Origin: an uncultured virus (IMG/VR IMGVR_UViG_3300032893_002794)
Lineage: Duplodnaviria > Heunggongvirae > Uroviricota > Caudoviricetes
Reading direction: 5' to 3' (one strand)
DNA: 64,000 bases
Virus record (IMG/VR): IMGVR_UViG_3300032893_002794
A program made the position numbers and the translations under genes. Shown here in pieces: positions 1,887 through 20,110 of this stretch; positions within the stretch are counted from its first letter, which is position 1, and every line of letters begins with the position of its first letter. Below the pieces are notes generated by a model. That model made no database searches and was not told the DNA's origin. It saw only the letters and a list, made by a program, of their open reading frames with translations.

Positions 1887-3749
1887 TCATCCTTCCTTGT
1901 GCCCCGAGTACCCGAGCATGCGGCGCAGCTCCGCCGACTGCGAGCGGGGCAAGAACTTCTTCTCCTCGCGCGACCACCCGATCGCGGCGTCGACGTCGAA
2001 CTCGGTCTCGCCGAGCAAGATCTCGTTGCCGAGGTAGGCTCCGAGCTCAGGGTCGCCCGCCGTACCGTGGAGCTCGTCCTCGCGCTTGGCGAGCAGGTCG
2101 CGGACCTTCTGATCGAGCTGCGGGGCGATGCCGCCCGCGTACCCCGACGGTTTTTCCGGGTCGACTACCATGACCTCGGGAGCCTTGGCGTACTGGAGGA
2201 CGACGGGAGCGCCGTCGCGCAGCTTCTCAGCCGTGCCGGCGGCGGCGAACTCGGCCTCGCGGCCCATGCCGAGCACGAGCGAGGGATCTTCGAGCCTGCC
2301 GTCAGGCAGGTAGACGAGCGCGTGGTAGTGGTAGTTGCCCTTGGGGCCGCGGCGCCACTTCGCGAAGGGCTTGGCTCGGATGCCTCCCGCGATCTTCTTC
2401 CACCCGGAAAACGTGCCCCCCTGCTGCGGGTAGCGGGGGTCGGCGACCTCCGTCCTGCTCTTGTCCCAGGTGGCGGTGCGCTCGTAGTGGTAGGGTAGCT
2501 CGCGCAGCTCGGCCACCCTGTAGCACGCTAGATCTTCGCAGTTGTGGACGATGACGTCCGACTCTGGGAGGTAGAATCGTCCGGTGTCGGTTGTGATGTC
2601 GCAGCAGAGCTCCGGTTCGCACTCCCTTATGCCCACGACCCTGGCGTTGTCGCGGGTGCTGTCCGGCTGTCGCACGGTGACTCTGTACATGGGGTGGGTG
2701 CCCAGTCCGCCGTGGTCGTCCCACCGACGCACGTGTACGCTCTGCCCCAGCATGCGGTAGAGGATCCGCAGCTGCAGGGCCAAGATTTCCGACGTGGTGC
2801 CGTGAGTGAAGGTTCCTGAGCTGGAGCAGGAGGCGTCGGCCAGGAGACCATCGATCAGCGAGACGACTTGATCACGAGACATCGAGAGTGACGGGAGATG
2901 CTTGTCGGGGGCTCGGTGTCCGCAGCCGTGCATGTGGGCTGCCAGCTCCCGGTGGTTGACGGCTATGTACCTCTCATGCCACCTGGTGCTGCACTGGATC
3001 TTCTTGCAGAGAGCCTCCACGCGACGCTTTTGCTCTTCTTTCTTGCACCCGTCCTTGCCTGATATGCAGAAGCGCGGGTGGCGAGGATAGTCGGACCAGC
3101 CGTCAGCCACGTAGACACCGAGAAGCCAGGCGAAGTCTCTCGGATCGAGACCAAAAGATTCAGACTCTGTTCTGGTGGGGAACTCACTCGTGGGTACTTT
3201 GAGGTAGTCTCCTACTACTACCTGCTCAGCTCTCTTCTCGGTATCGTCGCGCAGAAATACGCGGTGCTCGGGCGAGCATCGAAGGACAGAGCCGTTGCGA
3301 AGGTCGAGCTCGAGTATCGGCTTCTCGCCGGTCACGAGATTTTCGGTAACGGTCGTGAAGCAACCGTCACCCATGATCTTATCGCCAGGTACCAAGCTGC
3401 CGATGGCCTTGACGGTGTAGTCCTCGAGGAGGACCAGCGTGGAGACGGGTAGGCAGTCCCCCCAGTAGCCGGGGTAGACCCCTCGGCCCATGGTGCCCAT
3501 GAGCAGCGAGGGGATGTCGGGCCAGATCTCGGTGCCTTTCTCGGTCTCGTAGTGCAGCCCCGACCGGTAGACCGACGGGTAGTTGTGCTCGACGAGACCC
3601 CTCTTCTTGAACTCCTCGAACTGCCGGAGGTGGGTCTGGTTCACTCGACACAGACCCTCCATGAGCCAGAGCATGCGCATCTGCGACCACACCTGGTCGA
3701 AGTCGCCCCGGAACATCTGGCACCGGATGACGATGTTTGGCATTCCCAT
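1887..3749 (-). CDS. Transglutaminase-like (papain-fold) cysteine protease containing an intein
   Basis: Removing the intein restores WGD-C-EDLACYRVAEL; downstream YHA...EDPS gives candidate His and Asp triad residues. Confidence 0.75.
   Translation of the reverse strand: MGMPNIVIRCQMFRGDFDQVWSQMRMLWLMEGLCRVNQTHLRQFEEFKKRGLVEHNYPSVYRSGLHYETEKGTEIWPDIPSLLMGTMGRGVYPGYWGDCLPVSTLVLLEDYTVKAIGSLVPGDKIMGDGCFTTVTENLVTGEKPILELDLRNGSVLRCSPEHRVFLRDDTEKRAEQVVVGDYLKVPTSEFPTRTESESFGLDPRDFAWLLGVYVADGWSDYPRHPRFCISGKDGCKKEEQKRRVEALCKKIQCSTRWHERYIAVNHRELAAHMHGCGHRAPDKHLPSLSMSRDQVVSLIDGLLADASCSSSGTFTHGTTSEILALQLRILYRMLGQSVHVRRWDDHGGLGTHPMYRVTVRQPDSTRDNARVVGIRECEPELCCDITTDTGRFYLPESDVIVHNCEDLACYRVAELRELPYHYERTATWDKSRTEVADPRYPQQGGTFSGWKKIAGGIRAKPFAKWRRGPKGNYHYHALVYLPDGRLEDPSLVLGMGREAEFAAAGTAEKLRDGAPVVLQYAKAPEVMVVDPEKPSGYAGGIAPQLDQKVRDLLAKREDELHGTAGDPELGAYLGNEILLGETEFDVDAAIGWSREEKKFLPRSQSAELRRMLGYSGHKEG
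2541..3455 (-). other. Intein (305 aa) with LAGLIDADG homing endonuclease
   Basis: Starts CLPVSTLV; block B CSPEHRV; LAGLIDADG motifs LLGVYVADGW and LIDGLLADAS; ends VIVHN followed by +1 Cys. Confidence 0.93.
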
Positions 3750-4362: not shown

Positions 4363-4968
4363 CTACTCGACGGCCGGGCCGACGAGACCGCCCTGGAACT
4401 GCTGGGCCTGCCCGTTCTGGTTGGTCACGCTGATCGTGACGAACATGCTGATCTGCGCCGTGTCCATCTTGAGGCGGACGCCGAACGCGTTCTCGGTGAA
4501 CATCACGGCCGGCAGGGCGCCGGTCGAGACGAGCTGCGAGTTCTTGCCGACCTTGATGTCGGTGATGAGGAAGAACGGGGCCAGGTTGCTCGGAACGACA
4601 AGTCGCTCCGGGCGAAATATCACTTGCGGTTGCACGTTGATATTCGCCGAGCTGTTGCCGGCGACGGTCGTCGACCCGAGACCGAGAGCGTACTCTCGGC
4701 TCGAGCGCGGGGCCACGGAGCGCAGGAGGGTGCCCGCGGCCACGCGGCGGCGGAGCAGGTCGCGCGCCATCGCCTGCTTCTGCGCCTTGTTGCGGCTGTG
4801 CTGCTTGAGGACGGCCCCGAGGACGTCGTCGCCCGAGTCGTCGCCCGAGTCGTCGCCGACGAAGGCGCCGAGGGCGTCGTCGCCGTCGAGCAGGTCGCCC
4901 AAGATCTCGCTCCGGTCGAGTCCGGCCAGCTCGTCACCTTCGATGTCGCCGTACATGTCACGCATCAT
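4363..4968 (-). CDS. Candidate major capsid protein: acidic Gly/Asp N-terminus plus all-beta domain (possible single jelly roll)
   Basis: Strong RBS (AGAAAGG) and GDDSGDD low-complexity leader. The ~110-aa alternating beta-strand domain QPQVIFRPERLVV...IKVGKNSQLVS...SVTN is shared with three other ORFs. The capsid role is inference. Confidence 0.5.
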   Translation of the reverse strand: MMRDMYGDIEGDELAGLDRSEILGDLLDGDDALGAFVGDDSGDDSGDDVLGAVLKQHSRNKAQKQAMARDLLRRRVAAGTLLRSVAPRSSREYALGLGSTTVAGNSSANINVQPQVIFRPERLVVPSNLAPFFLITDIKVGKNSQLVSTGALPAVMFTENAFGVRLKMDTAQISMFVTISVTNQNGQAQQFQGGLVGPAVE

Positions 4969-5108
4969 GATCGTCGTACCTTTCTTGCACACCGCGAGAC
5001 CTCGTCCCGGGCCTCGTGCTGACGGCTCGGTAGTTAGCTCCCGCGGCTGATGTTGTTGGGGAGTTTGGGTGTCTCTCGTGCTGCCTAACTAGGTCGAGAA
5101 GTGGAGAC

Positions 5109-8661: not shown

Positions 8662-8912
8662 CGGCCAGTCCTGCGTGGTGCTCAGGCTGAAGGATTCTAC
8701 GGGACCGAACTACCACCTGACTCGTCAGGTTATCCACGAGCTCCTTGGGTTGTTCCCAGCGGAGAGTAAGGGAACAGAGGCTCCATCTGAGCGCTGCCCG
8801 TACGGTGGACCAGACACGCCGTCGTCGTGCCGGCTGCCCAAGGGGCACGGAGGACTTCACGAGCGTCGTCCGGGCCGCTAGTCTCTGAGTGGGAGAGGTA
8901 GAGAGATCTCGC

Positions 8913-9374
8913 TCACCGGCGCTCGCGCCGCAAGATCTTGAGGGCGTCCCTCAAGATTGGCAGCTGGGCGCGATCTTTCATGCGGTTTGCCGCCCTCTTC
9001 GAAGCTATCACGCGGTCGAGTGGCAGCACCCGCACGACGATTTCAGGAGCGAGCTCAACTCCTACCGACCTCGCGAGCTCGGCGCCGAAGCTCTCGAGCC
9101 CGTCAGGTCTCCACACGAGGTCGAAGTCGTCGAGCCCGGGGCCCGACACCACGGGTGGGTTGGCTCGCCAGGCGTATACTCCGCCGACCGTGCGGCAGGC
9201 CTCGGACAGCTTGCTCGTCTGACCTTGGTCCACCCACAGGTCTATGTCCATGGTGGTGCCCGGGACTCCGTGCAGTATGGCGGCGCTCATGCCCACCACC
9301 ATGTACGATACGCCGCTCGTCTCGAGTGCCCTCAGGAAGGCGAGCTGCTCGTCCGTCAGGAGCGGGGTACTCAC
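8913..9374 (-). CDS. Pol-beta-superfamily nucleotidyltransferase (putative toxin)
   Basis: YMVVGMSAAILHG...TMDIDLWV and C-terminal KRAANRMKD; GTG start overlaps the upstream stop. Confidence 0.8.
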   Translation of the reverse strand: MSTPLLTDEQLAFLRALETSGVSYMVVGMSAAILHGVPGTTMDIDLWVDQGQTSKLSEACRTVGGVYAWRANPPVVSGPGLDDFDLVWRPDGLESFGAELARSVGVELAPEIVVRVLPLDRVIASKRAANRMKDRAQLPILRDALKILRRERR

Positions 9375-9664
9375 TTCATGACTCCTGACCAGCGCCCTCG
9401 CATGAGACCTCGAGCGAGCCTCTCCTGCGGCGAGCGCTCGAGCGCCAGGAGGGTGCCCTCTGCCACCCCGGCGTCGACCCCGAGCACGCCGGAGAGGGAC
9501 GCGGCGCGCTCCACTCGGGCCAAGCGCCGACGCACGTCCCACCTCGCGCGGACGGCCACCCTCGAGATCTCAGATCTCTTCTCCGGCGAGAGCTTCGCCG
9601 CCCGGGCCGGACCTCCCCGCAGCCCTCCCAGTCGTCCCAGTGCGACAGCGTGAGCGTTCTTCAT
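9371..9664 (-). CDS. Small basic protein with AVALGRLGG motif (putative antitoxin/regulator)
   Basis: MKNAHAVALGRLGGLRGGPARAAKLSPEKRSEI...RW plus SPQERL; translationally coupled to the NTase. Confidence 0.65.
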   Translation of the reverse strand: MKNAHAVALGRLGGLRGGPARAAKLSPEKRSEISRVAVRARWDVRRRLARVERAASLSGVLGVDAGVAEGTLLALERSPQERLARGLMRGRWSGVMK

Positions 9665-9714
9665 GGCGCGTATTCTGCCACGTGAGCGCTCAAGTATCCA
9701 GCTAGTGTGAGGGT

Positions 9715-9927
9715 TCAGCCCCTGCCCTGTCGCAGGGCGGAGCGCCGCTCGACTTCCTCCTCGTACGCAGACCAATCCTCGTCACTCATGTCGTCTGGGT
9801 GGCCGTCGTGGCAGTTGGTCTCCATCCACATGTCCAAGCATGCCTCGTGGATGGTGGCCTTGGACCACTTCTCGTGCAGTCGTCGTCCCATCTTTCCGAT
9901 GTTCGGATTCCTCTTCAGTCCTGACAT
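9715..9927 (-). CDS. Hypothetical protein
   Basis: 70 aa; AAGGAG RBS. Confidence 0.5.
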   Translation of the reverse strand: MSGLKRNPNIGKMGRRLHEKWSKATIHEACLDMWMETNCHDGHPDDMSDEDWSAYEEEVERRSALRQGRG

Positions 9928-10734
9928 GGCTCGCGTCTCCTTCCGTGGATATGTTGTTTAGGCCGCAGTGTACGCAGCGACAGCGGACGGGTGCCAGCGC
10001 GAGCTTTTTTGTGTGGAGGAGCCTGCCGATCTCGCGCTGCGGGCTCGCGGACGGTCGTCGCCTGAAAGCGACGTGTCCGCACTCGAGTCTCAAGCACCAG
10101 GCCTGACTTCCGCGGAGTCCTGGCTTGGCATAACTGATGTGCACGACCAACCGCAGTGGATCTAAGTTCGGAGAGACGCTCGTACCTCGTCTCTTCGGCA
10201 CGCCGTGAGCCCAACTCATGTCTCTGATCGCCGCTTCATGGGTACTACTCTTACTTGGGCGTCATACGCGACGATCCTCCGGTCTCGCGCGATGAGGGCT
10301 GGTTTCTCAAAATTCGAAGCGATCAGATTATTGACATACAGGGCAACTTCTCGGAGCTTCGGTGGCTCGGCTCTGCTCTGTATTCTCACCATCACTTTGA
10401 GCTCGAACACCGTGGATCGTATCGTGGCATGGAACTTGATGGGTCGCCTCTTCAGTCCCGGCATGATCTGTACCTCCAGTGTAGATCTCATCCTGTGGGC
10501 AGTAGTGGTGAATTGCAGTGGATCTCGAACTCGACGACCTCTGAGCCGGGCACCTGCTCCTGGCGACCGCGCACGAAGTTGAGGGCGTCGGCGTCGGCCG
10601 CCAGGCAGAAGGGACCGAACCAGCACGTGAAGCGGCCCATGCCCGCGCCGGTGCAGATGAGCCACTCGGGCAGGGCGAGGCCGTACCGGGCCGACGGCCT
10701 CCGGAGGGCTAAGCACTTGATCACCTGGCCGCGC

Positions 10735-12417
10735 CTAGGATCCACCAGGCGGCTCCAGCACGCCGACGAGGCTCGCGGGGTAGTAGGCACCCTCGTCGCT
10801 GGTGGGGACGACCTTACTCGCCCCGGTCTGGTCGTCCTCGAGGACTTTGACCTTGCGGGCCTCGTACTCCACGTGGGCCGCCGCACCTACGACGAGCTCA
10901 CGCTTCTTACTCTTCGACCTGATGAGAAACTGCTGACCGTCCTCGGCTGTGAGGACATAGTCGTGGACCGTCTCGAGCACGCACGTGTGCTGAGCGTAGA
11001 AGCTCTGCTGGGCCTCTGTGGTGTCGGTCACGCGCACCCGCTTGCCGAGGTCGGCCTTCCGGAGCTCGTGCGAGGTCACCGTGGCCCGAGCGCACAGGGT
11101 GCATCGGGTGAGCACCGTCTGCTTGAAGTCGGGTCCTCCCTTGGTGGTCCTGACTTTGTGCTCCTTAACGGTGCCGCGCAGGGAGACCACCTGGCCGGGC
11201 TCGAGGCCCATGTCGCGGGTGGAGAAGTAAGCGAACATGTTGTCCTGGGGGTCGGACATGGCGTACAGGTACTTGGGCCCGAAGTCTCCCTCGAGCACCC
11301 TGCTGTACTCGACCCGGAGGGCCTCGAACACTCTCCGCTCCTTGACGACTCCCTGGTGGGTGGACCGGGCGGCCCGCTCGGAGAAGCTAGACCTTTGGGC
11401 GCGCCGCTCGAGGTCTCTCTGGTAGAATATGATGGACGATGCGACGATGCCCTCGAAGCCGGGCCGCAAGATCCCTGAAGCCATCGCCACGCGCAGGGAG
11501 TTCTCGTAGTCGGAGAGCGCGTCGACGTCGCAGCCCTCGAAGTGCTCACGGCAGTGGTCGATCGCCTTTCTGGCGAGCTCGTAGTCCGCCTCGCTGGGCA
11601 TGTAGCGAGTGCGCTGCTGGGGAGACGCGAAGAGGCCGCACGATTGGGCCAGATTGGCGGTGGCCTGGTGGTCCTTGCCCTGAGCTCGCGCCGCCCTCCG
11701 CGACAGCCACCCGTCCTCCCGGATGGAGCACGCCACGAACGGCAGGTAGCTCTCGATCGTCGAGTACCTCGGACCTCCGCGGTCGGAGACCTCGCGCTCG
11801 GAGTCCTCGAGCAGCTCGCCGGCCGAGCACAAGATCTCCGAGGCCTCGCACAGGGCCCAGGGGTCGGCGATGCCGGTGTAGTCCGACAGGCACTGCCGGC
11901 CGACCTGCCGGAGGCTCCCCGAAGCGTCCCGCAAGACGAAGGTGTCGTTGCGCCGGCGGGCGAGGTGGCAGTGGTCGCAGTTCTTGGGGTCGGCTTGCCG
12001 GTACCTCTTGAGCTCGCCCTCCGCGACGTCTGCTCCCGGGCACACCCGGAGCACGGTCCCCACCTCCTCGACGTGCGACAGCACCGCCACGAACTGCCAC
12101 CCCTCTACGCGCGAGGGCTTCGGAGCCACGAGCTCGACCACCGCGTACACCTCACCGACTCGCCTCGCATGTGCCCTTCCCTCGAAGTCGAGGGCGGACT
12201 GGAGCTGGTCGACCTCGGGCTGGCGCACCTTAAGATCGCCCACGTTGATCACGATCGGCTCCACGGGATAGCCGCGCTTCGCGAGGCGGGATGCGCGCTT
12301 GTTGAGCTCGACTATCCTCGCCCTCAGGCGCTCGACGTTCTCGGCCGGCACCTCGAAGACGGTGCGCGCACTGCCGCCCTGCCCTGCCACAACTTCTGCG
12401 ATCGTCGCGTTTTCCAT
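10735..12417 (-). CDS. Phage-type protein with Cys motif and C-terminal OB-fold-like region
   Basis: 560 aa; CDHC...RRRNDTFVL...QVGRQCL; C-terminal VVSLRGTVKEH...QTVLTRC; has its own promoter. Confidence 0.65.
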   Translation of the reverse strand: MENATIAEVVAGQGGSARTVFEVPAENVERLRARIVELNKRASRLAKRGYPVEPIVINVGDLKVRQPEVDQLQSALDFEGRAHARRVGEVYAVVELVAPKPSRVEGWQFVAVLSHVEEVGTVLRVCPGADVAEGELKRYRQADPKNCDHCHLARRRNDTFVLRDASGSLRQVGRQCLSDYTGIADPWALCEASEILCSAGELLEDSEREVSDRGGPRYSTIESYLPFVACSIREDGWLSRRAARAQGKDHQATANLAQSCGLFASPQQRTRYMPSEADYELARKAIDHCREHFEGCDVDALSDYENSLRVAMASGILRPGFEGIVASSIIFYQRDLERRAQRSSFSERAARSTHQGVVKERRVFEALRVEYSRVLEGDFGPKYLYAMSDPQDNMFAYFSTRDMGLEPGQVVSLRGTVKEHKVRTTKGGPDFKQTVLTRCTLCARATVTSHELRKADLGKRVRVTDTTEAQQSFYAQHTCVLETVHDYVLTAEDGQQFLIRSKSKKRELVVGAAAHVEYEARKVKVLEDDQTGASKVVPTSDEGAYYPASLVGVLEPPGGS

Positions 12418-12426
12418 CGTGTGACC

Positions 12427-12455
12427 AGGCTACCACTTCTAGAAGTAGGTGTCAA
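12427..12455 (-). promoter_or_regulatory. Sigma70-type promoter
   Basis: TTGACA-N17-TAGCCT, 9 nt upstream of the ATG at 12417. Confidence 0.65.
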
Positions 12456-12612
12456 ACGATAAAAATGATGCATCTGCGTCGCACCGGGTCGGTGGCGGAC
12501 TGACCCTAATTTTTATCCTTGACACCTGGTGAGCTGGTGCCGCAATATGGTCAACGACACCAGGTGCGAAAGTGCCAGAAGACATCAATGAGAATAGGAG
12601 CTGTGGACCAAC

Positions 12613-13203
12613 ATGAGCAGAGGAAAGCGAACGAAGAGCAGCAACGGAACGTCGTCGACATCGAGCGCGAGCCGCGGGGATAGTGAGAGCGCCGCCGCGC
12701 CGCTAGTCAAGAAGATGCCCACGGTCGCGGAGCGGATGCGCGCCAAGGCAAAGACCGCTCGCTCCCTGCTCGAAGATCTTGCCGTCCTGGCGAAGCGCAC
12801 GGTCGCTCCGCAGGAGATCGTCGAGAAGTCTCAAGCCTTGGGATCGGAGATAGGTTTTCTGCAATCCATCATCGGAGCACTCGATACGAGCGGCTGGCAG
12901 CCGGCCAAGCTGGTACCCCTCAAAGATCTCGCGGAGGGGGACGCCATCACCGTCGCCCCGAAGCACCGCGAGACCTACTCGTTCGTCCCCGGGCTCGCGG
13001 ACGGCACCGTCAAGCTCGTGGCGGGCACGATCGTCCGCTCTTCGAACGGCCGCATCCTGCGCGTGCTGCTCAAGAGGTCTGCCATAGACATAAGGGCCAC
13101 GCCGCACGACTTGGGCCCCACCAAGTGCGGGTCTGATGGCGAGGAAACTTACCCCGAGGCCGTCTACGGCTTCGCGCCGCTCGCGCACCTGCAGCGGGCG
13201 TAG
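12613..13203 (+). CDS. Hypothetical protein, paralog of 52300-52764
   Basis: IGALDTSGWQP...LAEGDAITVAPKHRETY resembles VGSLESAGYAP...YEVGDKVKVAQQYRPRY; AGGAG RBS. Confidence 0.6.
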   Translation: MSRGKRTKSSNGTSSTSSASRGDSESAAAPLVKKMPTVAERMRAKAKTARSLLEDLAVLAKRTVAPQEIVEKSQALGSEIGFLQSIIGALDTSGWQPAKLVPLKDLAEGDAITVAPKHRETYSFVPGLADGTVKLVAGTIVRSSNGRILRVLLKRSAIDIRATPHDLGPTKCGSDGEETYPEAVYGFAPLAHLQRA

Positions 13204-13306
13204 CCCGCCAGCACGCGCGCTGAGCGTGTGGGGGCGGACCGGCTCGGTGGGCCCGCCCCGCCGCGAGAGCTGCAAGGTCGTCAACCGGACAGGCACGGTT
13301 TTCTAC

Positions 13307-13381
13307 TGCGGGGTCGACAAGCGGTCAAAGTCTCCGGGCTCATAACCCGGCAATTCGCTGGTTCGAATCCAGCCCCCGCAA
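13307..13381 (+). tRNA. tRNA-Met(CAT), initiator-like, copy 1
   Basis: Acceptor stem TGCGGGG/CCCCGCA; anticodon arm CCGGG-CTCATAA-CCCGG with three G-C pairs; T-arm GCTGG-TTCGAAT-CCAGC; CCA not encoded. Confidence 0.9.
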
Positions 13382-13444
13382 CAACGCTCAGGATCTTCGC
13401 TTGTCATGCAACTTGCTGGAAGAGACGGGCAATGGGAGACGGTC

Positions 13445-15016
13445 ATGAGGCAAGAAGAGAGAGGCTCAATCATACTGGTAGTATTGCTGGTCATCCTCGT
13501 CCTCGCAGCTGTGGGGATGGTCGCGATCTTCGCGACGAACAGCACGCTAAGGGTCGAGGCCAACGTCAACATGTACAACCAGGCGCTGGTAGTGGCCGAG
13601 GCCGGGGTCGAGCGAGCTCGCTACATCCTCACGAACCAAGCGGCGCCCCTCGACGTGCACGCGCTCCTTGAGGGGTCGCACCACCCTAAAGACGAGGTCC
13701 CGCAGGCCGAGCAGGAGTGCGCGGGGCAGTGCGGGAATGTCTCGGAGTGCGACGGGGTGAAGCGCGGGGCGATCGTGGTCGACCCTCAGGGCGCTTCCCT
13801 CCTCCTCGACGTCAGCTACCCGTCGATCGATCGCAACCACCTGCCCGACGGGACGCACGTGGCGTCCACGATGGGCAGGTATACCGTCTACGTCAGGCAG
13901 GACGTGGTAGACTGCAGGATGGGCAACTTCACCTGCGACGGCGTCCCCGCGGGAGACGCCGGGATCTCGGGGTGCGAGGTTCCCGCCGGAGCGCCCTCTC
14001 CGAACGGCGTTCTGACCGTCCGCTCCGAGGGGGTGGCCCTCGACGGCTCTCGAGCTGTTGTGGAGAGGAGCATCAGCATCAGGGCACTAGCACCAGTAGG
14101 ACTCAAGAGAGACTCGGGCGCGGGTGGTGGTCCTGACTTGGGAGATCCCGCGGGGTCGGGCGGAGCCGGCGGATCTGGCGGGGACTCCGGGACCGGAGGA
14201 TCTACAAGTTCAGGAGGAAGCACCGGCACAGGGGGAGCGGTGCTACCGGGAACCGGAGGCCTGGTCGGCACCGGCGGCCTGGTGGGCACGGGAGGGCAGG
14301 TGGGCACGGGTGGCACCGTGGGTCCTCCCGTCGGCGTGTGCCTCTCCTACGCTGTCTCTGCCGTGGGGCCCTGCAGGACGGACTCCGGGTGCATCACGAT
14401 CGACAACAACTCGCTCGTGGACAGCAAGGTCTCCATGAGGTGCTCGCACGGCAGCGCCTCTGGGATATGCCCCAACAACTGCCCCAGCGGCTGCGTCCCC
14501 GCCGTCGACTACAGCTCGAGCATCAGCCTGACTACCAGCACGTTGCCGGTGCCCCCGCACACGACCAGCTCGGCGTCAGTCCTCTCCCCACCAGCCACTT
14601 CCGTGCCAGCGCCGCCAGATTCAAGTGACGTCACCTACTACGACGAAATCAAGGTGACGTCAGGGACCTTGACCCTGCACAGCGGGCGCTACGTGGTCAA
14701 CAACCTCCGGCTGGACGGGGGCACGCTGCACGTCGATGACGCTCGCGGCCCCGTCGTGGTTTATGTGCTCGGCACCCTGAGCCCGAGCTCGAGGGTGACG
14801 GTCCAGAGCGGCACGGCTAACGGCTTCTGGCTGGTCTACGACGGACCCTACGACGTCAACAACAACACCGGCAACGACTTCACTGGCGTCATCTTCGCTC
14901 CGGGCGCGGTGGTCAACCTCAACTACAAGGTCCACGGGGCAGTAGTGGGGGCGAAGGTCACGCTCAACAGCCAGTCGCGCGTGTCCTACGATGCCGACCT
15001 AGCCTGCCCGCTCTGA
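13445..15016 (+). CDS. PilX-like minor pilin N-terminus, Gly-rich linker and C-terminal beta-solenoid domain
   Basis: MRQEERG|SIILVVLLVILVL class III signal peptide; QALVVAEAGVE PilX motif; GTGG repeats; C-terminal FTGVIFAP...GAVVG. Confidence 0.8.
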   Translation: MRQEERGSIILVVLLVILVLAAVGMVAIFATNSTLRVEANVNMYNQALVVAEAGVERARYILTNQAAPLDVHALLEGSHHPKDEVPQAEQECAGQCGNVSECDGVKRGAIVVDPQGASLLLDVSYPSIDRNHLPDGTHVASTMGRYTVYVRQDVVDCRMGNFTCDGVPAGDAGISGCEVPAGAPSPNGVLTVRSEGVALDGSRAVVERSISIRALAPVGLKRDSGAGGGPDLGDPAGSGGAGGSGGDSGTGGSTSSGGSTGTGGAVLPGTGGLVGTGGLVGTGGQVGTGGTVGPPVGVCLSYAVSAVGPCRTDSGCITIDNNSLVDSKVSMRCSHGSASGICPNNCPSGCVPAVDYSSSISLTTSTLPVPPHTTSSASVLSPPATSVPAPPDSSDVTYYDEIKVTSGTLTLHSGRYVVNNLRLDGGTLHVDDARGPVVVYVLGTLSPSSRVTVQSGTANGFWLVYDGPYDVNNNTGNDFTGVIFAPGAVVNLNYKVHGAVVGAKVTLNSQSRVSYDADLACPL

Positions 15017-15058
15017 GGAGCTCGCTCCGTGCTGCCGATGGCGTAGAAGGATATTTAC

Positions 15059-15133
15059 TGCGGGGTCGACAAGTGGTCAAAGTCTCCGGGCTCATAACCC
15101 GGCAATTCGCTGGTTCGAATCCAGCCCCCGCAA
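15059..15133 (+). tRNA. tRNA-Met(CAT), initiator-like, copy 2
   Basis: Identical to 13307-13381 except for one C>T change in the D-loop. Confidence 0.9.
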
Positions 15134-15508
15134 CAACGCTCGGGATCTTCCGGGCGCCCGGCGGCGATGCTCGCTTGTCATGCAACTTGAGAGCCTCCAC
15201 ATCGCCGCCGGTTTTTTCTGCTCTGTCTCATTGTGGCTTGACTCAGTTCATTCCGATATCGGATCACTTCAATAACTAAGTGTTAAAAAGTATTTCTTGA
15301 CCTCATTACCTCGTGGTACGATCGAGTGCATGTCGAAGAGCAAGGTCCGGTCACAACCGAGAGATCGCGCCACGGGCCGCTACTCGTTCGACGGCAAGCT
15401 CGAGCGACTCTGCCGGTGCGCCAAGCTGCTCGGCACGCACCTGGCCGAGCCTCCCCATCCTGGGCTCGCAGAAGTTGACGGAGTGAAGTACATCATTCAT
15501 CTTTGTTC

Positions 15509-16126
15509 TCATGCATAGCTCCAGAAGCGGGTGTCCGGCACTCCCGGCACTCGGATCTCGCGGGCCCCGGCGGCGACCCTCCTCGCGGCGATCTCGGCCG
15601 AGCTGTGCCTGTACTTGGGGTACCTGCCGGGGTCCTGCAGGTAGAGGGCGTGGAGCCTGTCCTGAGTCCTGGGGGCGTCCCACTGGGTAGCGCCTCTGAC
15701 CAGGTCGGGCACACGGCCCTCGACGACGGCGGCCGCCAGCTGGAGCGTGCGGGCCGTGGGCGGCCGCTTCGTGTCGGCGTAGTGATTCACCTCCTGCGAT
15801 CCGAACCTCCCCGAGGGGCAGAGGACGGCGAAGATCTTGCTCTTGACCCCCCGGACCTTGTTCCACACCGCCCGCCCCACCGCGAGCCTACCCTTGTCCA
15901 TCTTCTCCTCGCTCTGCATAGCGGAGGCCAGCGCGTACGTGTCGAGGTCAGCGCCGGCGGCCTGGGCGAGACCCTCGGGGTCGGCGGCGACGAGCCCGTC
16001 CGGCCCGACCGCGTGCAGCCGGCCCTCCACCCTCAGGTGAGCCAGGGACCGCGCGACCAGCGCCAGGCCGACCGTGCCGCCGACACCGGCGGCCCACGCC
16101 CTCCAGCCGAGTCGCAGGTCACGCAT
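15509..16126 (-). CDS. Membrane-anchored SleB/Hydrolase_2-like cell-wall hydrolase
   Basis: N-terminal TM; YALASAMQSE (candidate catalytic Glu), LAVGRAVWN, DLVRGATQWD. Start set at ATG 16126, downstream of a promoter. Confidence 0.55.
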   Translation of the reverse strand: MRDLRLGWRAWAAGVGGTVGLALVARSLAHLRVEGRLHAVGPDGLVAADPEGLAQAAGADLDTYALASAMQSEEKMDKGRLAVGRAVWNKVRGVKSKIFAVLCPSGRFGSQEVNHYADTKRPPTARTLQLAAAVVEGRVPDLVRGATQWDAPRTQDRLHALYLQDPGRYPKYRHSSAEIAARRVAAGAREIRVPGVPDTRFWSYA

Positions 16127-16132
16127 CACTCG

Positions 16133-16161
16133 AGGGTAGTCCGATAGCGCGAACGTGTCAA
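16133..16161 (-). promoter_or_regulatory. Sigma70-type promoter (leaderless transcript)
   Basis: TTGACA-N17-TACCCT, 6 nt upstream of the ATG at 16126. Confidence 0.5.
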
Positions 16162-16278
16162 CGTCACCCGGCAGTCGGTAGTGGGTCAGTTTGGGGAAAG
16201 ATCGTGAGGCACGGATCGGCCGTTGGCGCAAGTCATCGATAAAGGAACGGGCTAGCGGCCATCGTCGGTGGTAAGTAC

Positions 16279-17439
16279 ATGCAAGGATATCGCGACATGG
16301 TGGATAACGCTAATAGTCAGGATGTTTTGGACTACGGCGAAAATGTGGGTTACGATGATGCTGCAATGGGATGGGCAACTCTTCAATACTCCCTGGATGA
16401 GGTGGCCTCTGCCGGAGATGTTCTGGTGGACAAGAAATGCTCCGCGGATGATTATGATCGCGCGCTAGATGTCGTAAATAATTGGAGATCGTGTCACGCA
16501 TTTGCGCTGAATACGCTCCAAATGAACCTGCGAAGAAAGGCCAGTGCGATGGATGTGAATGCGACCATCGCGCAGAGGATCAAGCGGCTGCCTGCCATCA
16601 TTCACAAACTAGATCGTCTCCGATGGCTCAGGCTCTCTAAGATACAGGACATCGGCGGATGCCGAGGAATTCTTTCAAACGTAAGGCAGGTGAACAAGTT
16701 ACGTGATGAATTCGTCAACGGCTCTGGAATGCAACACATTCTTATTACACAGGATGATTACATCACCAACCCCAAGAAGACAGGATACCGTGGAATTCAT
16801 CTCGTGTATGAGTATCGCAGTAAGAGGAACTCATTGCACAACGGTAGGAAGATCGAAATACAATTGCGTTCTCGTCTTCAGCATGCATGGGCCACTGCCG
16901 TAGAAACTGTTGGTTTGTTTTCACAACAGTATCTTAAGTCGAATCGCGGAGACACTAGATGGTTGCGTTTCTTTTCCCTTATGGGATCTGCAATGGCTCA
17001 GCGAGAAAAGGTTTCTCCCGTTCCAGGTACCCCAACAGACACCACCGAACTGATAAGCGAACTCACCACTCTGGCGTCTGAACTTGAAGTTAGGACCAAA
17101 CTGGCCGCGTGGACGAGTGCGTTGCAGTGGGTAAGGCCGCAGCAGGAAGGGTCACACTTCTTATTATCACTTGACACCCGCGCCGAGCGCTTAACCGTCA
17201 CGACATACGGAAAATCACAATTGGAACAGGCAAATGCGGATTATCTCAAATTAGAGAAGGACAATACTGGTAAACCTGGTCGAGATGCCGTTCTGGTCAC
17301 GTTAGAGTCGGTGAAATCACTTCGAACCGCATACCCGAACTATTTTGCTGATACGCGACTGTTCATGGAGGCCGTAGACGCAGCTACGAAGAATCTTCTG
17401 ACCAAGGGAAATCCCAGGCAGCTATCCCTGCCTATCTGA
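16279..17439 (+). CDS. RelA/SpoT synthetase-domain protein, CapRel-like fused toxin-antitoxin
   Basis: AQRIKR, QDIGGCR, GYRGIHLVY and IEIQLRSRLQHAWATAVE synthetase motifs; C-terminal AYPNYFAD (YxxY). True start is probably ATG 16366. Confidence 0.85.
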   Translation: MQGYRDMVDNANSQDVLDYGENVGYDDAAMGWATLQYSLDEVASAGDVLVDKKCSADDYDRALDVVNNWRSCHAFALNTLQMNLRRKASAMDVNATIAQRIKRLPAIIHKLDRLRWLRLSKIQDIGGCRGILSNVRQVNKLRDEFVNGSGMQHILITQDDYITNPKKTGYRGIHLVYEYRSKRNSLHNGRKIEIQLRSRLQHAWATAVETVGLFSQQYLKSNRGDTRWLRFFSLMGSAMAQREKVSPVPGTPTDTTELISELTTLASELEVRTKLAAWTSALQWVRPQQEGSHFLLSLDTRAERLTVTTYGKSQLEQANADYLKLEKDNTGKPGRDAVLVTLESVKSLRTAYPNYFADTRLFMEAVDAATKNLLTKGNPRQLSLPI

Positions 17440-18256
17440 GCAGATCCACAATCTCCCCAACCTCCCAAACGTGGTCGGTGACGTCCGCTGCCATCGCAGG
17501 CGTCACCCGCAGCGTCTGATGGATGCGCGCGAAGTTGTAGTGCATGAAGTGCAGAGCGACGGCTGCGCAGTGGTTCTCAAGTTTCTTTGAGAAGGCGTTA
17601 GTCAGGCGCGTGAACCGTCGCATGCTCATGCGCATTGTGAGGTTCTGACGCTCAACGTAGCTCGTGGAGATGTGCACCTTATCCGGTGTGCCGACGATGA
17701 TTTCCTTCTTTGCGCCAGTGCAAAGCGCTGGACTGTAGCGGACCTCGGTGCCGACGTCGCGGTTGTCACTGCCGTACTGCTTGACCAGCATCGCGTAGTC
17801 GATGTCGTTGCCGAAGGCGCGCTCTACCGCATCCACGTAGACCTTGTGGCCGTCGCTCGTGAGCTGCACGCGGTTGGCAAGCCGGCCAGCAAGGTCCGAG
17901 ATGAAACGGTAAGCGGTCTCGGCGCTGCGGTCGCCAACCACCCACGAGGCGATCAACTTCGTCTCAGCGTCGAGCGCGGTCCACGTCCAAACGTCGCCAA
18001 TTCCGTGCGCGCCAGCATTCACCTGCTTCTGTTTGGCGCCGACGAATGACCAGATCTCATCGACCTGGACGCGCTTGCATGGAAGGTTCACGAGGTGCTC
18101 GACCTGATAGGCCTCGCAGGCTTCGCCGAGTTCGAGCAAGAGCTTCTGAATCGTGTTCTTCGCGATGCCCGTCATGCGGACGGTGCCGCGGATGCTGTTA
18201 CCCTCGACCAAAGCCTTGACCACTTGGATCTGCTTCTCTCGTGGCAACCGATTCAT
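17432..18256 (-). CDS. IS1-family DDE transposase
   Basis: N-terminal HTH; VQVDEIWSFV, LTSDG, STSYVERQNLTMR...RFTRLTNAFSKK. Confidence 0.93.
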   Translation of the reverse strand: MNRLPREKQIQVVKALVEGNSIRGTVRMTGIAKNTIQKLLLELGEACEAYQVEHLVNLPCKRVQVDEIWSFVGAKQKQVNAGAHGIGDVWTWTALDAETKLIASWVVGDRSAETAYRFISDLAGRLANRVQLTSDGHKVYVDAVERAFGNDIDYAMLVKQYGSDNRDVGTEVRYSPALCTGAKKEIIVGTPDKVHISTSYVERQNLTMRMSMRRFTRLTNAFSKKLENHCAAVALHFMHYNFARIHQTLRVTPAMAADVTDHVWEVGEIVDLLR

Positions 18257-18286
18257 ACTGACCATTATGCGTGAGGGCTCTCGCAT

Positions 18287-18371
18287 ATGCAAGCATCTTT
18301 TTACAACCATGCTTGCATTCTTCTACATCTAGCGTAGTATGCAAGCATCAACAGAGAAAGGATGCTTGCAT
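18287..18371. promoter_or_regulatory. Two inverted-repeat operator pairs between the divergent transposase and P63C genes
   Basis: ATGCAAGCAT-N12-ATGCTTGCAT (18287-18318) and ATGCAAGCAT-N13-ATGCTTGCAT (18339-18371). Confidence 0.6.
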
Positions 18372-19359
18372 GTCCGATGAACCTACAGGAAAGGCAAAGG
18401 GTGGAGTCGCTCGGGCACTGGCCCTCTCGCCAGAGCGAAAAAGCAGCATTGCCAGAAGTGCAGCCATGGCGCGATGGGGTGAGAAACCGCTTCACGCTAC
18501 GCACCGCGGTAATTTTAAGGAGGAATTTGGCATCGATGTTGGATGTTACGTGCTCGATGACGAACAAAAGACAGCAGTAATCAGTCAAAGCGGAATGGCG
18601 CCAGCTCTGGGGTTAGTCGCCGGAAGCGGTGGCCAGGCGCTGCGATTCGTCAACAGCATTAGACTTGCCCCATACGTCAGTGCCGAACTGGCGGAGAAAT
18701 TGAAGAAGCCGCTTGTTTTCCAGTGGTTTTCTCCAGTGCCGAACAATCCGACGGTCATCGTACACGGCTATGACGTCACGATATTGGTCGACATCTGCAA
18801 AGCCGTTCTCCAAGCGCACATGGACGGCAAGCTCCAGAAGCGCCATCAAAACATGGTGAGGCAGGCCCACATCATCCTGAATGCTTCGGCGAAGGCAGGA
18901 ATTAAGGGCCTGGTCTACGCGTTGGCCGGGTACGACGCGACCAAAGAAGAGGTTATCGCCGCCTTCAAGACGTTTGTCCGAGAAGAGGCGCGCGAGTACG
19001 AAAAGGAGTTTCCGGACCAGCTCTACACTGAATGGTATCGTCTCTACAAATTGCCAAAACCAGAGAAGAATAGACCGTGGAAATTCAAGCACCTTACAAT
19101 TCGGCACGTCTACTATCCGCTGGCCAGAAGCAGCGGAAGGGTGCTCGATCTGCTTAAAGCGTTGCGGGCTAGAGGAACTGAGCGTCACAAGAAGCTACAT
19201 CAATTCCTTTCGGATACTGGAGTCAAAGCGCTTCGCACTCATCTCGGACAGTTGGCCGGCATCGCCCAGGTATCTGACGACCGGGAGATGTACGAACGCT
19301 ACTTCGATAGGATATTCGGTCGACAGCAAAGCCTCGACTTCTCGACGAGGACGACCTGA
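18370..19359 (+). CDS. P63C-domain protein
   Basis: GKAKGGVARALALSPE N-terminal motif; CYVLDD, YEKEFPDQLY, VYYPLA and KKLHQFLS; AGAAAGGA RBS. Confidence 0.85.
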   Translation: MSDEPTGKAKGGVARALALSPERKSSIARSAAMARWGEKPLHATHRGNFKEEFGIDVGCYVLDDEQKTAVISQSGMAPALGLVAGSGGQALRFVNSIRLAPYVSAELAEKLKKPLVFQWFSPVPNNPTVIVHGYDVTILVDICKAVLQAHMDGKLQKRHQNMVRQAHIILNASAKAGIKGLVYALAGYDATKEEVIAAFKTFVREEAREYEKEFPDQLYTEWYRLYKLPKPEKNRPWKFKHLTIRHVYYPLARSSGRVLDLLKALRARGTERHKKLHQFLSDTGVKALRTHLGQLAGIAQVSDDREMYERYFDRIFGRQQSLDFSTRTT

Positions 19360-19361
19360 TC

Positions 19362-19598
19362 CTATTTATCCCACCGCGCCAGCGCCGCCTTCTTCGCCGC
19401 CTCGCTCAGCTTCTTCTTGCCGAGCTTCTTCGCCCTGGCCTTCCCACCCTTGAGCCCACCCAAGCGCCCTAGCGCAACGGCTGCTGCGTTCTTGCCTTCG
19501 TCCGTCTTGACCTCTGCTGGAGCTTCTCCCGTGGCCATGGCCGTCACCATGTGGGCTAGTTGGTTCGTATCGCGTGGCATGCGTGAGCGCTTTTGCAT
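19362..19598 (-). CDS. Small basic 'histone H1-like' protein
   Basis: PRDTNQLA...KNAAAVALGRLGGLKGGKARA...AALARW. Confidence 0.8.
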   Translation of the reverse strand: MQKRSRMPRDTNQLAHMVTAMATGEAPAEVKTDEGKNAAAVALGRLGGLKGGKARAKKLGKKKLSEAAKKAALARWDK

Positions 19599-20110
19599 AC
19601 CTTAGCCATGCCACAGGTTGGGAGCGGAGTCCACGAAACGCCAGCGCGCGTCAGGTCCAAACTGACCCACTACCCGGCAGTCTGGTCAGCTCGGAGTGTA
19701 GCCGCCTCGGTGCCTCGAGCACACGACCCTCGTGCGCTGTCCCTCACCTGGCCCCATACTCTCGATTATCCGGATGCCCTGCTCCTGGCAGCGCACGTAG
19801 ACAGCGTCGTCCGCTGTCGGTATCAAGTCGCTGGCCTCACACTGGCCATGGTCGCTCTTTTCGGCAAAGGCCGGTAGCCATGTAGCCGGCAGCGCAGGTA
19901 CCGAGCGAGATTGAAGGCATGAATTTTCAGCGCAGACACAAGCCGTTAAAGTGCCGCAAGCTCGCGGCTGCGACCTGTGCTTGCCTGAAGGTTCCACTCG
20001 ACGAGACGGTATTCCACCCGTGCTGCGGACGATATCACATCGGCTGTGGTCGAATCATGCGCTCGAGCGCGATCTACAGTCGCGGGCGACCGCCGAAGCT
20101 CCCGATCTAG

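What the first reader, a model, noticed from the sequence alone, without database searches (positions are those of the whole stretch)
16177..19674. Intact IS1-family cargo transposon delivering a CapRel-like anti-phage toxin into a viral genome
Seen: perfect 18-bp IRs and an 8-bp TSD enclosing the transposase, a RelA/SpoT protein ending in AYPNYF, a P63C gene and a small basic protein. The insertion is intergenic and spares the adjacent promoter. Known: fused CapRel toxSAS proteins are autoinhibited by a C-terminal YxxY motif, are triggered by phage capsid protein and pyrophosphorylate tRNA 3' ends. Inference: a recently inserted compact defence transposon that arms this virus against competitors. 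Its co-occurrence with capsid-domain paralogs and duplicate tRNAs is suggestive but may be coincidental.
Basis: partly seen in the sequence, partly recalled or inferred. Interest (0 to 1): 0.75.

Follow-up and report, generated by a model that had tools for sequence, protein, structure and literature searches.

The report
Promoter-targeting transposon carrying CapRel toxin
An intact jumping gene sits 15 bases upstream of a promoter in a large, likely tailless bacterial virus and carries a CapRel protein predicted to shut down protein synthesis when another phage infects; its relatives carry many different defence-type genes and often sit at the same distance from promoters, so the virus is likely a vehicle for mobile bacterial immunity.

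Summary
In detail: perfect 18-bp inverted repeats, an 8-bp target duplication and four open genes. The RelA/SpoT protein is a fused CapRel (E 1.5e-44 to CapRel-SJ46; model Z 27.9; 9 of 10 tested residues identical). The element belongs to a large family of IS1-type cargo transposons: 109 distinct elements, 85 with exact target duplications, 99 with the small basic gene. Cargo is scattered over the transposase tree, and 51 of 108 relatives carry defence, toxin-antitoxin or restriction-type genes. CapRel itself was not found in any other element. The spared promoter is not luck: 16 of 84 relatives have a -35 box exactly 15 bp from the same end (p about 1e-22). That habit is published for Mutator-type TnGBS elements; I did not find it for IS1. 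A family-wide palindrome at two element promoters points to the small protein as repressor (inferred). The host is a 151-kb linear virus with a protein-primed polymerase and a predicted jelly-roll capsid. That CapRel benefits this virus is unshown; the tRNA and capsid links look coincidental. This scan found the family, and the 15-bp rule, before on other DNA.

The parts
16169..16176 (.). Left copy of 8-bp target-site duplication CGGCAGTC
16177..16194 (+). Terminal inverted repeat at the transposase-downstream end
16279..17439 (+). Fused CapRel (longest ORF 386 aa; likely start 16366, 357 aa): toxSYNTH domain, anchors, pseudo-zinc-finger antitoxin, YPNY motif at 352-355
17432..18256 (-). Single-ORF IS1-family DDE transposase, 274 aa; D66, D135, E202 invariant; overlaps the CapRel stop by 8 bp
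18268..18285 (.). Palindromic operator-like site (11 of 14 to the family pattern) between -35 and -10 of the leaderless transposase promoter
18288..18370 (.). Four TGCWWGCA boxes (18288, 18310, 18340, 18363) in the divergent P63C/transposase promoter region
18370..19359 (+). P63C-domain protein, 329 aa; its N-terminus shares the GGxARA...ARW helix motif with the small basic protein
19362..19598 (-). Small basic protein, 78 aa, near-universal in the family (a relative is annotated 'histone H1'); predicted autorepressor
19580..19597 (.). Second operator-like palindrome (10 of 14) at the start of the small gene
   Evidence: (D7)
19657..19674 (-). Terminal inverted repeat at the small-gene end
19675..19682 (.). 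Right copy of the target-site duplication
16133..16161 (-). Viral sigma70-type promoter TTGACA-17-TACCCT, its -35 box 15 bp outside the repeat; points away from the element into a leaderless gene
15509..16126 (-). Flanking viral gene driven by that promoter (weak cell-wall hydrolase match, E 0.08; 56% homolog in a related 194-kb virus)

Best explanation
This is an intact IS1-type cargo transposon that sits 15 bp upstream of a viral promoter, likely guided there by promoter-bound RNA polymerase, and carries a fused CapRel predicted to stay self-inhibited until a foreign phage protein binds it and then to block translation by pyrophosphorylating tRNA ends, so the virus is likely its current vehicle rather than the party it evolved to serve. 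Shown: boundaries, duplication, open genes, CapRel homology in both domains, the family skeleton (repeat, small basic gene, cargo slot, transposase, cargo slot, repeat), cargo turnover, and the excess of -35 boxes at 15 bp. Inferred: arrival from a deltaproteobacterial or myxococcal host; repression of the transposase and small gene by the small basic protein at a palindrome; binding of the P63C protein to its four boxes; tolerance of CapRel because no protein of this virus triggers it. Any cell holding the virus in a persistent state would gain abortive defence, but selection for that is not shown.
For: CapRel: E 1.5e-44 to 7ZTB over residues 35-362; A77, R79, R116, Y155, V338, L339, A351, Y352, Y355 of SJ46 kept and A341 is T (my mapping onto the numbering in PMC9712102); model pLDDT 87, Foldseek E 4.5e-23, VIA Z 27.9 over 293 residues against 14.7 for the best alarmone synthetase. 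Family: 109 distinct elements, 85 with exact 8-bp duplication; small gene in 99 of 109; cargo labels need 45 changes on the tree against 48 shuffled; the closest element L092 is 71% identical from the repeat to the transposase stop, then carries a methylase-Mrr gene instead of CapRel. Targeting: 16 of 84 at offset 15, background 0.0038 per position. Operator: at least 11 of 14 in 47 of 104 transposase promoters and 57 of 95 small-gene starts, 0 of 104 in each of two controls. P63C boxes: two or more in 12 of 15 against 0 of 92. The two closest transposases (82%, 81%) are from a deltaproteobacterial and a Myxococcales genome. CapRel absent from 108 other elements, from 136 further repeat-bearing loci, and this element type absent around 80 viral CapRel loci.
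Against: No activity, expression or transposition was measured. Only 21 of 84 elements have a 5-of-6 -35 box at 15 bp on either end, and the fresh set was weak (2 of 32 ends). Defence enrichment is p 2.5e-6 after spreading labels over clusters but p 0.08 on representatives alone. L39 replaces a basic residue kept in 93 of 117 homologs. The element is contiguous with the virus at flank depth in three samples with no empty-site joint listed, which fits selection as well as neutrality. The operator pattern was read off the same data it was counted on.
Confidence: 0.6

Rival explanations
1. The virus persists as a linear plasmid-like prophage and keeps the element because CapRel protects its host cell from competing phages.
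For: CapRel-SJ46 is carried by a temperate phage and protects the host (PMC9712102 passages). The genome has inverted ends and a protein-primed polymerase, like tectiviruses that persist as linear plasmids (recalled). CapRel shows no changed letter in three runs and no empty site is listed. An earlier unchecked note reports a Cas12m-CRISPR locus in this genome.
Against: Lifestyle unknown; a purely lytic virus would lose its own progeny when CapRel fires. The three runs may be one campaign and include the source. The family reaches viruses routinely with other cargo (71 viral loci), and CapRel is a one-off cargo.
Confidence: 0.25
2. The CapRel is a weakened or re-specified member: it binds tRNA poorly, prefers other tRNAs, or makes an alarmone.
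For: L39 where 93 of 117 homologs have R or K; N-terminal stretch net charge -5 against median -3. Basic residues near the N-terminus matter for FaRel2 tRNA binding (bioRxiv 2024.07.05.602228 passages); I did not map them onto this protein.
Against: Its closest homologs (P0002, P0003, P0004) also lack the basic residue and 36 of 117 are as acidic. The same paper says the acceptor-stem site is divergent among toxSAS. Catalytic and autoinhibitory residues are kept.
Confidence: 0.1
3. CapRel senses this virus's own capsid-domain proteins or is buffered by its duplicated tRNAs, forming a linked viral control circuit.
For: Four paralogs of a jelly-roll-like domain and two tRNA-Met genes are in the genome; CapRel-SJ46 can bind unrelated triggers (abstract).
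Against: The tRNAs are a 75-of-76 duplicate inside a 95-bp direct repeat around a PilX-like gene; CapRel-SJ46 blocked all reporters tested, so it is not narrowly specific. The paralogs lie 9 to 55 kb away, outside the element, and self-triggering would kill the virus.
Confidence: 0.04

Closest known systems
CapRel-SJ46 fused toxSAS (PDB 7ZTB, 9ERV; Zhang et al. 2022, PMC9712102); PADLOC model PDC-S33
   Same: Single chain with toxSYNTH, anchors and pseudo-zinc-finger; 9 of 10 tested residues identical; sensor region least conserved among homologs (0.51 against 0.73 and 0.82); carried on a virus.
   Different: 33% identity; trigger unknown; acidic first helix; sits inside a transposon in a likely non-tailed virus, not directly in a tailed temperate phage.
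IS1 family, transporter IS (tIS) with passenger genes; ISMhu11-like subgroup (subgroup features recalled, not seen in any call)
   Same: Pfam DDE_Tnp_IS1 above cut-off, GG-starting repeats, 8-bp duplication, single ORF starting at a helix-turn-helix-like segment with no zinc finger; tIS are noted for several IS families (PMC7986276 passage).
   Different: Fixed small basic gene, palindromic operator, two fast-changing cargo slots rich in defence-type genes, and promoter-distance targeting; none of these found described in my searches.
TnGBS / ISLre2 / ISKra4 Mutator-like elements (Guerillot et al. 2014, PMC3942029)
   Same: Insertion at a fixed distance upstream of the -35 box (15-17 bp there, 15 bp here), biased to one end.
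   Different: Unrelated transposase family, so convergence is likely; only about a quarter of sites here show a clear box.
Tectiviridae and single-jelly-roll viruses such as HHIV-2 (for the host virus)
   Same: Inverted ends, protein-primed polymerase B, jelly-roll capsid candidate (best hit 6h82_b, E 0.019, Z 7.8).
   Different: 151 kb, several times larger than tectiviruses (recalled); the fold match is weak.

Membership tests
Fused CapRel | N-terminal toxSYNTH with R79, R116 and G-loop Y155 | tested here: met
   R100, R129, Y170; conserved in 116, 117 and 117 of 117 homologs
Fused CapRel | C-terminal pseudo-zinc-finger antitoxin in the same chain | tested here: met
   Alignment to 7ZTB runs through 362; model has three strands with a helix between the second and third; VIA range 34-372, Z 27.9
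Fused CapRel | YxxY motif and its scaffold (A77, V338, L339, A341, A351, Y352, Y355) | tested here: met
   Six identical; A341 is T, and S in 85 of 117 homologs
Fused CapRel | Basic tRNA acceptor-stem surface | tested here: inconclusive
   L39 where 93 of 117 have R or K; the site is reported as divergent
Fused CapRel | tRNA pyrophosphorylation, phage trigger, phage defence | not testable with these tools
   Needs bench work
IS1 family | IS1-type DDE transposase | tested here: met
   PF03400 45.6 bits, cut-off 24.1; D66, D135, E202 invariant in 15 of 15; NCBIfam NF033558 78 bits, below its cut-off of 100
IS1 family | Short terminal inverted repeats and 8-9 bp target duplication (recalled) | tested here: met
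   18-bp repeats, 8-bp duplication; 85 of 109 elements have an exact 8-bp duplication
Canonical IS1 (InsA/InsB) | Two frameshifted ORFs with an N-terminal zinc finger (recalled) | tested here: not met
   One 274-aa ORF with no cysteine cluster at the N-terminus
IS1 subgroup ISMhu11 | No zinc finger, longer D-to-E spacing, passenger genes (all recalled) | tested here: inconclusive
   D135 to E202 spacing and cargo fit my recollection, but no reference element or paper was available
TnGBS/ISLre2 promoter-targeting elements | Insertion at a fixed distance upstream of -35 | tested here: met
   16 of 84 at offset 15, p about 1e-22
TnGBS/ISLre2 promoter-targeting elements | Mutator-type transposase | tested here: not met
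   Pfam gives IS1 above cut-off and no Mutator match at E 0.1; it works like them but is not a member

The most novel reading that the evidence does not exclude
A very large, unnamed family of IS1-type transposons acts as an interchange system for immunity: a fixed chassis with its own uncharacterised repressor, two rapidly swapped cargo slots, and RNA-polymerase-guided landing 15 bp upstream of promoters. The roughly half of elements with unrecognised cargo would then be a ready list of new defence systems, and here the chassis has armed an undescribed 151-kb protein-primed jelly-roll virus with a sensor for rival phages.
Probability: 0.3. Interest if true: 0.78.

Novelty: new variant of a known kind. 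Interest (0 to 1): 0.52.

Why it matters
CapRel is known, but how such single-gene immune systems move between bacteria and viruses is mostly inferred. Here one is caught inside a bounded, autonomous element with a clean target duplication. The family gives a simple handle (a 17-bp end plus the small gene) for harvesting candidate defence genes from poorly studied phyla. Promoter-distance targeting in an IS1-type enzyme would be a second, independent origin of a habit known from Mutator-type elements, and a possible way to insert genes without breaking others.

Tried and rejected
Empty site: none listed in three DNA runs at 90% or 80% likeness; these are contigs, which drop rare variants, and only 58-66% of each run was read. 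The related virus G001 is not syntenic here; only the left gene matched. No RNA holder listed. CapRel as recurrent cargo: rejected on 0 of 108 elements, 0 of 136 repeat loci, 0 of 80 viral and 0 of 8 metagenome CapRel loci; L172 is ambiguous because its contig ends. CapRel was not found with this query in three incomplete genomes holding related elements. The generic promoter scan missed the viral promoter because its -10 has 3 of 6. The small protein has no Pfam family and no significant solved relative; the transposase has no solved relative by sequence. A two-copy complex prediction of the small protein was never run because the queue was full, so dimer formation is untested. The careful tree did not finish; the quick tree is used. 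A clamp-binding-like tail on CapRel was dropped: 0 of 119 homologs have it. No Rfam match other than the two tRNAs. One search returned only irrelevant papers.
Full report
Observation. The element runs from 16177 to 19674. Its ends are 18 of 18 complementary and occur only twice in the genome at up to 3 mismatches in 17 nt. CGGCAGTC is duplicated on both sides. Four genes are open: CapRel 16279-17439 (+), transposase 17432-18256 (-), P63C 18370-19359 (+), small basic gene 19362-19598 (-). G+C is 54% against 64% in the virus. Contigs from three wetland DNA runs bridge the left junction (all three) and the right junction (X2, X3) at flank-like depth, with no changed letter in CapRel and no joint that skips the element. 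These runs may include the source sample.

The toxin is a fused CapRel. It matches CapRel-SJ46 (7ZTB) at E 1.5e-44 over residues 35-362, against 4.6e-7 for the best alarmone synthetase, and PADLOC PDC-S33 at 1e-116. Using the numbering in PMC9712102 (passages) on that alignment, A77, R79, R116, Y155, V338, L339, A351, Y352 and Y355 are identical and A341 is threonine. The AlphaFold model (118 sequences, pLDDT 87) finds 9ERV and 7ZTB first (E 4.5e-23; Z 27.9, rmsd 3.4, 293 residues). The sensor stretch 286-335 is the least conserved among 117 homologs, as reported for SJ46. One point against: L39 replaces a basic residue kept in 93 of 117 homologs, although the closest homologs lack it too, and the acceptor-stem site is described as divergent (bioRxiv 2024.07.05.602228, passages). 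The mechanism, YxxY blocking the ATP site until a trigger binds and then tRNA pyrophosphorylation, is transferred from PMC9712102 and PMC11782079 (passages and one section), not shown here. Triggers include non-capsid proteins (abstracts of PMC11578894 and PMC13423816). The family is common: 4,794 homologs at E 1e-20 among 7,997 candidates scored.

The carrier is one of a large family. From 171 loci plus the window, 159 held the transposase, 114 had both ends, and 109 were distinct; 85 have an exact 8-bp duplication, and sizes run 1.3-7.1 kb. The genome scan kept only the best 80 of an estimated 2,300 stretches, so the sample leans to close relatives. The small basic gene lies on the transposase strand in 99 of 109, within 250 nt of the upstream end in 78; its profile finds 4,775 clusters at E 1e-10 (some may share only the motif). 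A relative in a Mesorhizobium plasmid is annotated 'histone H1' beside 'IS1 family transposase'. The transposase passes the Pfam IS1 cut-off and D66, D135 and E202 are invariant in 15 of 15 aligned. Small gene, P63C and transposase all show dN well below dS against L092. The ISMhu11 label is recalled; no held paper contains it and the review I tried was not held.

Cargo turns over quickly and leans to defence. The 370 cargo ORFs (some spurious) form 257 clusters, 232 of them singletons. I scanned 150 of them, chosen as cluster representatives and longer singletons: RosmerTA components, HTH-ImmA proteins resembling PD-Lambda-2 B, PD-Lambda-5, IetA, Panacea, PemK, HipA, PIN, NYN, NotI, methylases and nSTAND1 appeared. 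Spreading labels over clusters, 48 of 223 cargo ORFs match PADLOC at 1e-10 against 7 of 150 random flank ORFs, p 2.5e-6; on representatives alone it is 16 of 150 against 7 of 150, p 0.08. Cluster members are not independent, and a single-component match is not a working system. By element, 40 of 108 have a PADLOC match and 51 of 108 have that or a toxin-antitoxin or restriction Pfam family. On a quick tree of 104 transposases (5 left out as truncated or broken), cargo labels need 45 changes against 48.0 shuffled (20 of 200 shuffles as low), and well-supported branches force at least 10 changes for P63C and 6 for RosmerTA. The closest element, L092 from a deltaproteobacterial genome, is 71% identical from the repeat to the transposase stop, then carries a methylase-Mrr gene in place of CapRel; L023 has RosmerTA in place of P63C. 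CapRel was found in no other element. How cargo is captured is not resolved; exchange between the conserved flanking genes is my inference.

The spared promoter is a targeting habit. The viral promoter at 16161 belongs to a motif found 12 times in the genome against 0.9 in 30 shuffles, and its -35 box begins exactly 15 bp from the repeat. Among 84 other elements with exact duplications, 16 have at least 5 of 6 to TTGACA at offset 15 from the transposase-downstream end (background 0.0038, p about 1e-22; 9 also have a -10) and 5 at the other end (p 4e-5); other offsets from 8 to 29 give 0-3. Three quarters show no clear box, and 16 further elements, mostly non-autonomous, gave only 2 of 32 ends. 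TnGBS, ISLre2 and ISKra4 insert 15-17 bp upstream of -35 boxes, with a proposed contact to RNA polymerase (PMC3942029, passages and section 12). The same mechanism here is inferred.

Regulation (inferred). The transposase ATG follows a sigma70-type promoter by 4-9 nt in 71 of 94 elements, against 0 in a control. A palindrome TGCTTGA-N4-TCAAGCA scores at least 11 of 14 in 47 of 104 regions before the transposase and 57 of 95 small-gene starts, against 0 of 104 in each of two interior controls; I read the pattern off these data. P63C carries the small protein's helix motif at its N-terminus (probability 96%; 15 of 17), and related boxes occur twice or more in 12 of 15 divergent P63C elements and 0 of 92 without P63C. 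A separate viral gene at 9371-9664 has the motif and a 10-of-14 palindrome just upstream of its start, about 1.6% likely by chance. Together these suggest the motif binds this DNA half-site.

The host. G000 is a virus record of 150,998 bp with 127-bp inverted ends (the true repeat may be longer) and a protein-primed polymerase B (E 7e-29). No tailed-phage capsid, portal or tail family and no integrase matched among 89 proteins in PHROGs and 84 in Pfam, out of about 108 ORFs of 150 aa or more. The protein at 4366-4992 has 638 homologs and three paralogs in the genome, and models as a beta sandwich whose best hit in two searches is a chain of HHIV-2 (E 0.019; Z 7.8, rmsd 4.6, 112 residues), a weak match. 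The closest transposases point to a deltaproteobacterial or myxococcal host. Lifestyle is unknown, which is why benefit to the virus stays open.

Novelty. Searches showed no paper on CapRel in a transposon, on this chassis, or on promoter targeting by IS1 elements, and search 123 none on such a virus. I saw listings only, the library lacks most subscription papers including the 2009 IS1/IS1595 paper, and I read no supplements. Passenger-carrying IS are known (PMC7986276, passage). Verdict: a new member of a known toxin family in a new variant of a known transposon kind; interest 0.52.

Noticed in passing
whole genome G000 (window is 62001-126000); window 4366-4992: 151-kb linear virus with inverted ends, protein-primed polymerase B and a highly conserved single-jelly-roll capsid candidate (119 listed homologs at 72-85%, on contigs up to 282 kb); no tailed-phage structural genes matched. 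May be an undescribed group of large viruses.
   Followed up: partly
window 9371-9664 and 8913-9388 (minus strand): Viral gene with the same GGxARA...ARW motif and the same palindrome upstream, followed by a nucleotidyltransferase-like gene (35% to a DUF2204 paralog); looks like a toxin-antitoxin pair and could cross-regulate the transposon.
   Followed up: partly
window 13304-13398 and 15056-15150: 95-bp direct repeat holding two initiator-like tRNA-Met genes (75 of 76 identical, no encoded CCA) around a PilX/DUF7305 gene; looks like a cassette integrated at a tRNA.
   Followed up: partly
window 12455, 16161, 33738, 48923: Several viral sigma70-type promoters have the ATG 6-8 nt after the -10 box, implying leaderless mRNAs.
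   Followed up: no
L189 about 9500-9900 (G001 about 87500-87900): In the related 194-kb virus, a CRISPR-like array lies upstream of the same flanking gene, so this spot may be an insertion hotspot.
   Followed up: no
L076, L080 and 11 elements; run X1 joint 16193-19658: Non-autonomous elements of 153 bp to 2.6 kb share the same ends, most with exact target duplications; one contig has only 35 letters between the two repeats.
   Followed up: no
L020, L029, L030, L110, L117, L138, L145 downstream slot: Seven elements carry a related 290-330 aa gene convergent with the transposase, with a faint proteasome-subunit match (E 0.006); candidate unknown defence gene.
   Followed up: no
window 1887-3749: Gene with an intein-like insert (Pfam E 5e-7, below cut-off) beside the capsid candidate.
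   Followed up: no
G000 8743-18095 (L180): Five tandem radical-SAM/SPASM paralogs with a sulfotransferase and a glycosyltransferase-TPR-like gene; possibly a virion or host surface modification cluster.
   Followed up: no
L172 1171-1428: A 54% CapRel homolog is followed by a convergent small gene related to those just inside the repeat of L046 and L055; the contig ends before a repeat could be seen.
   Followed up: partly
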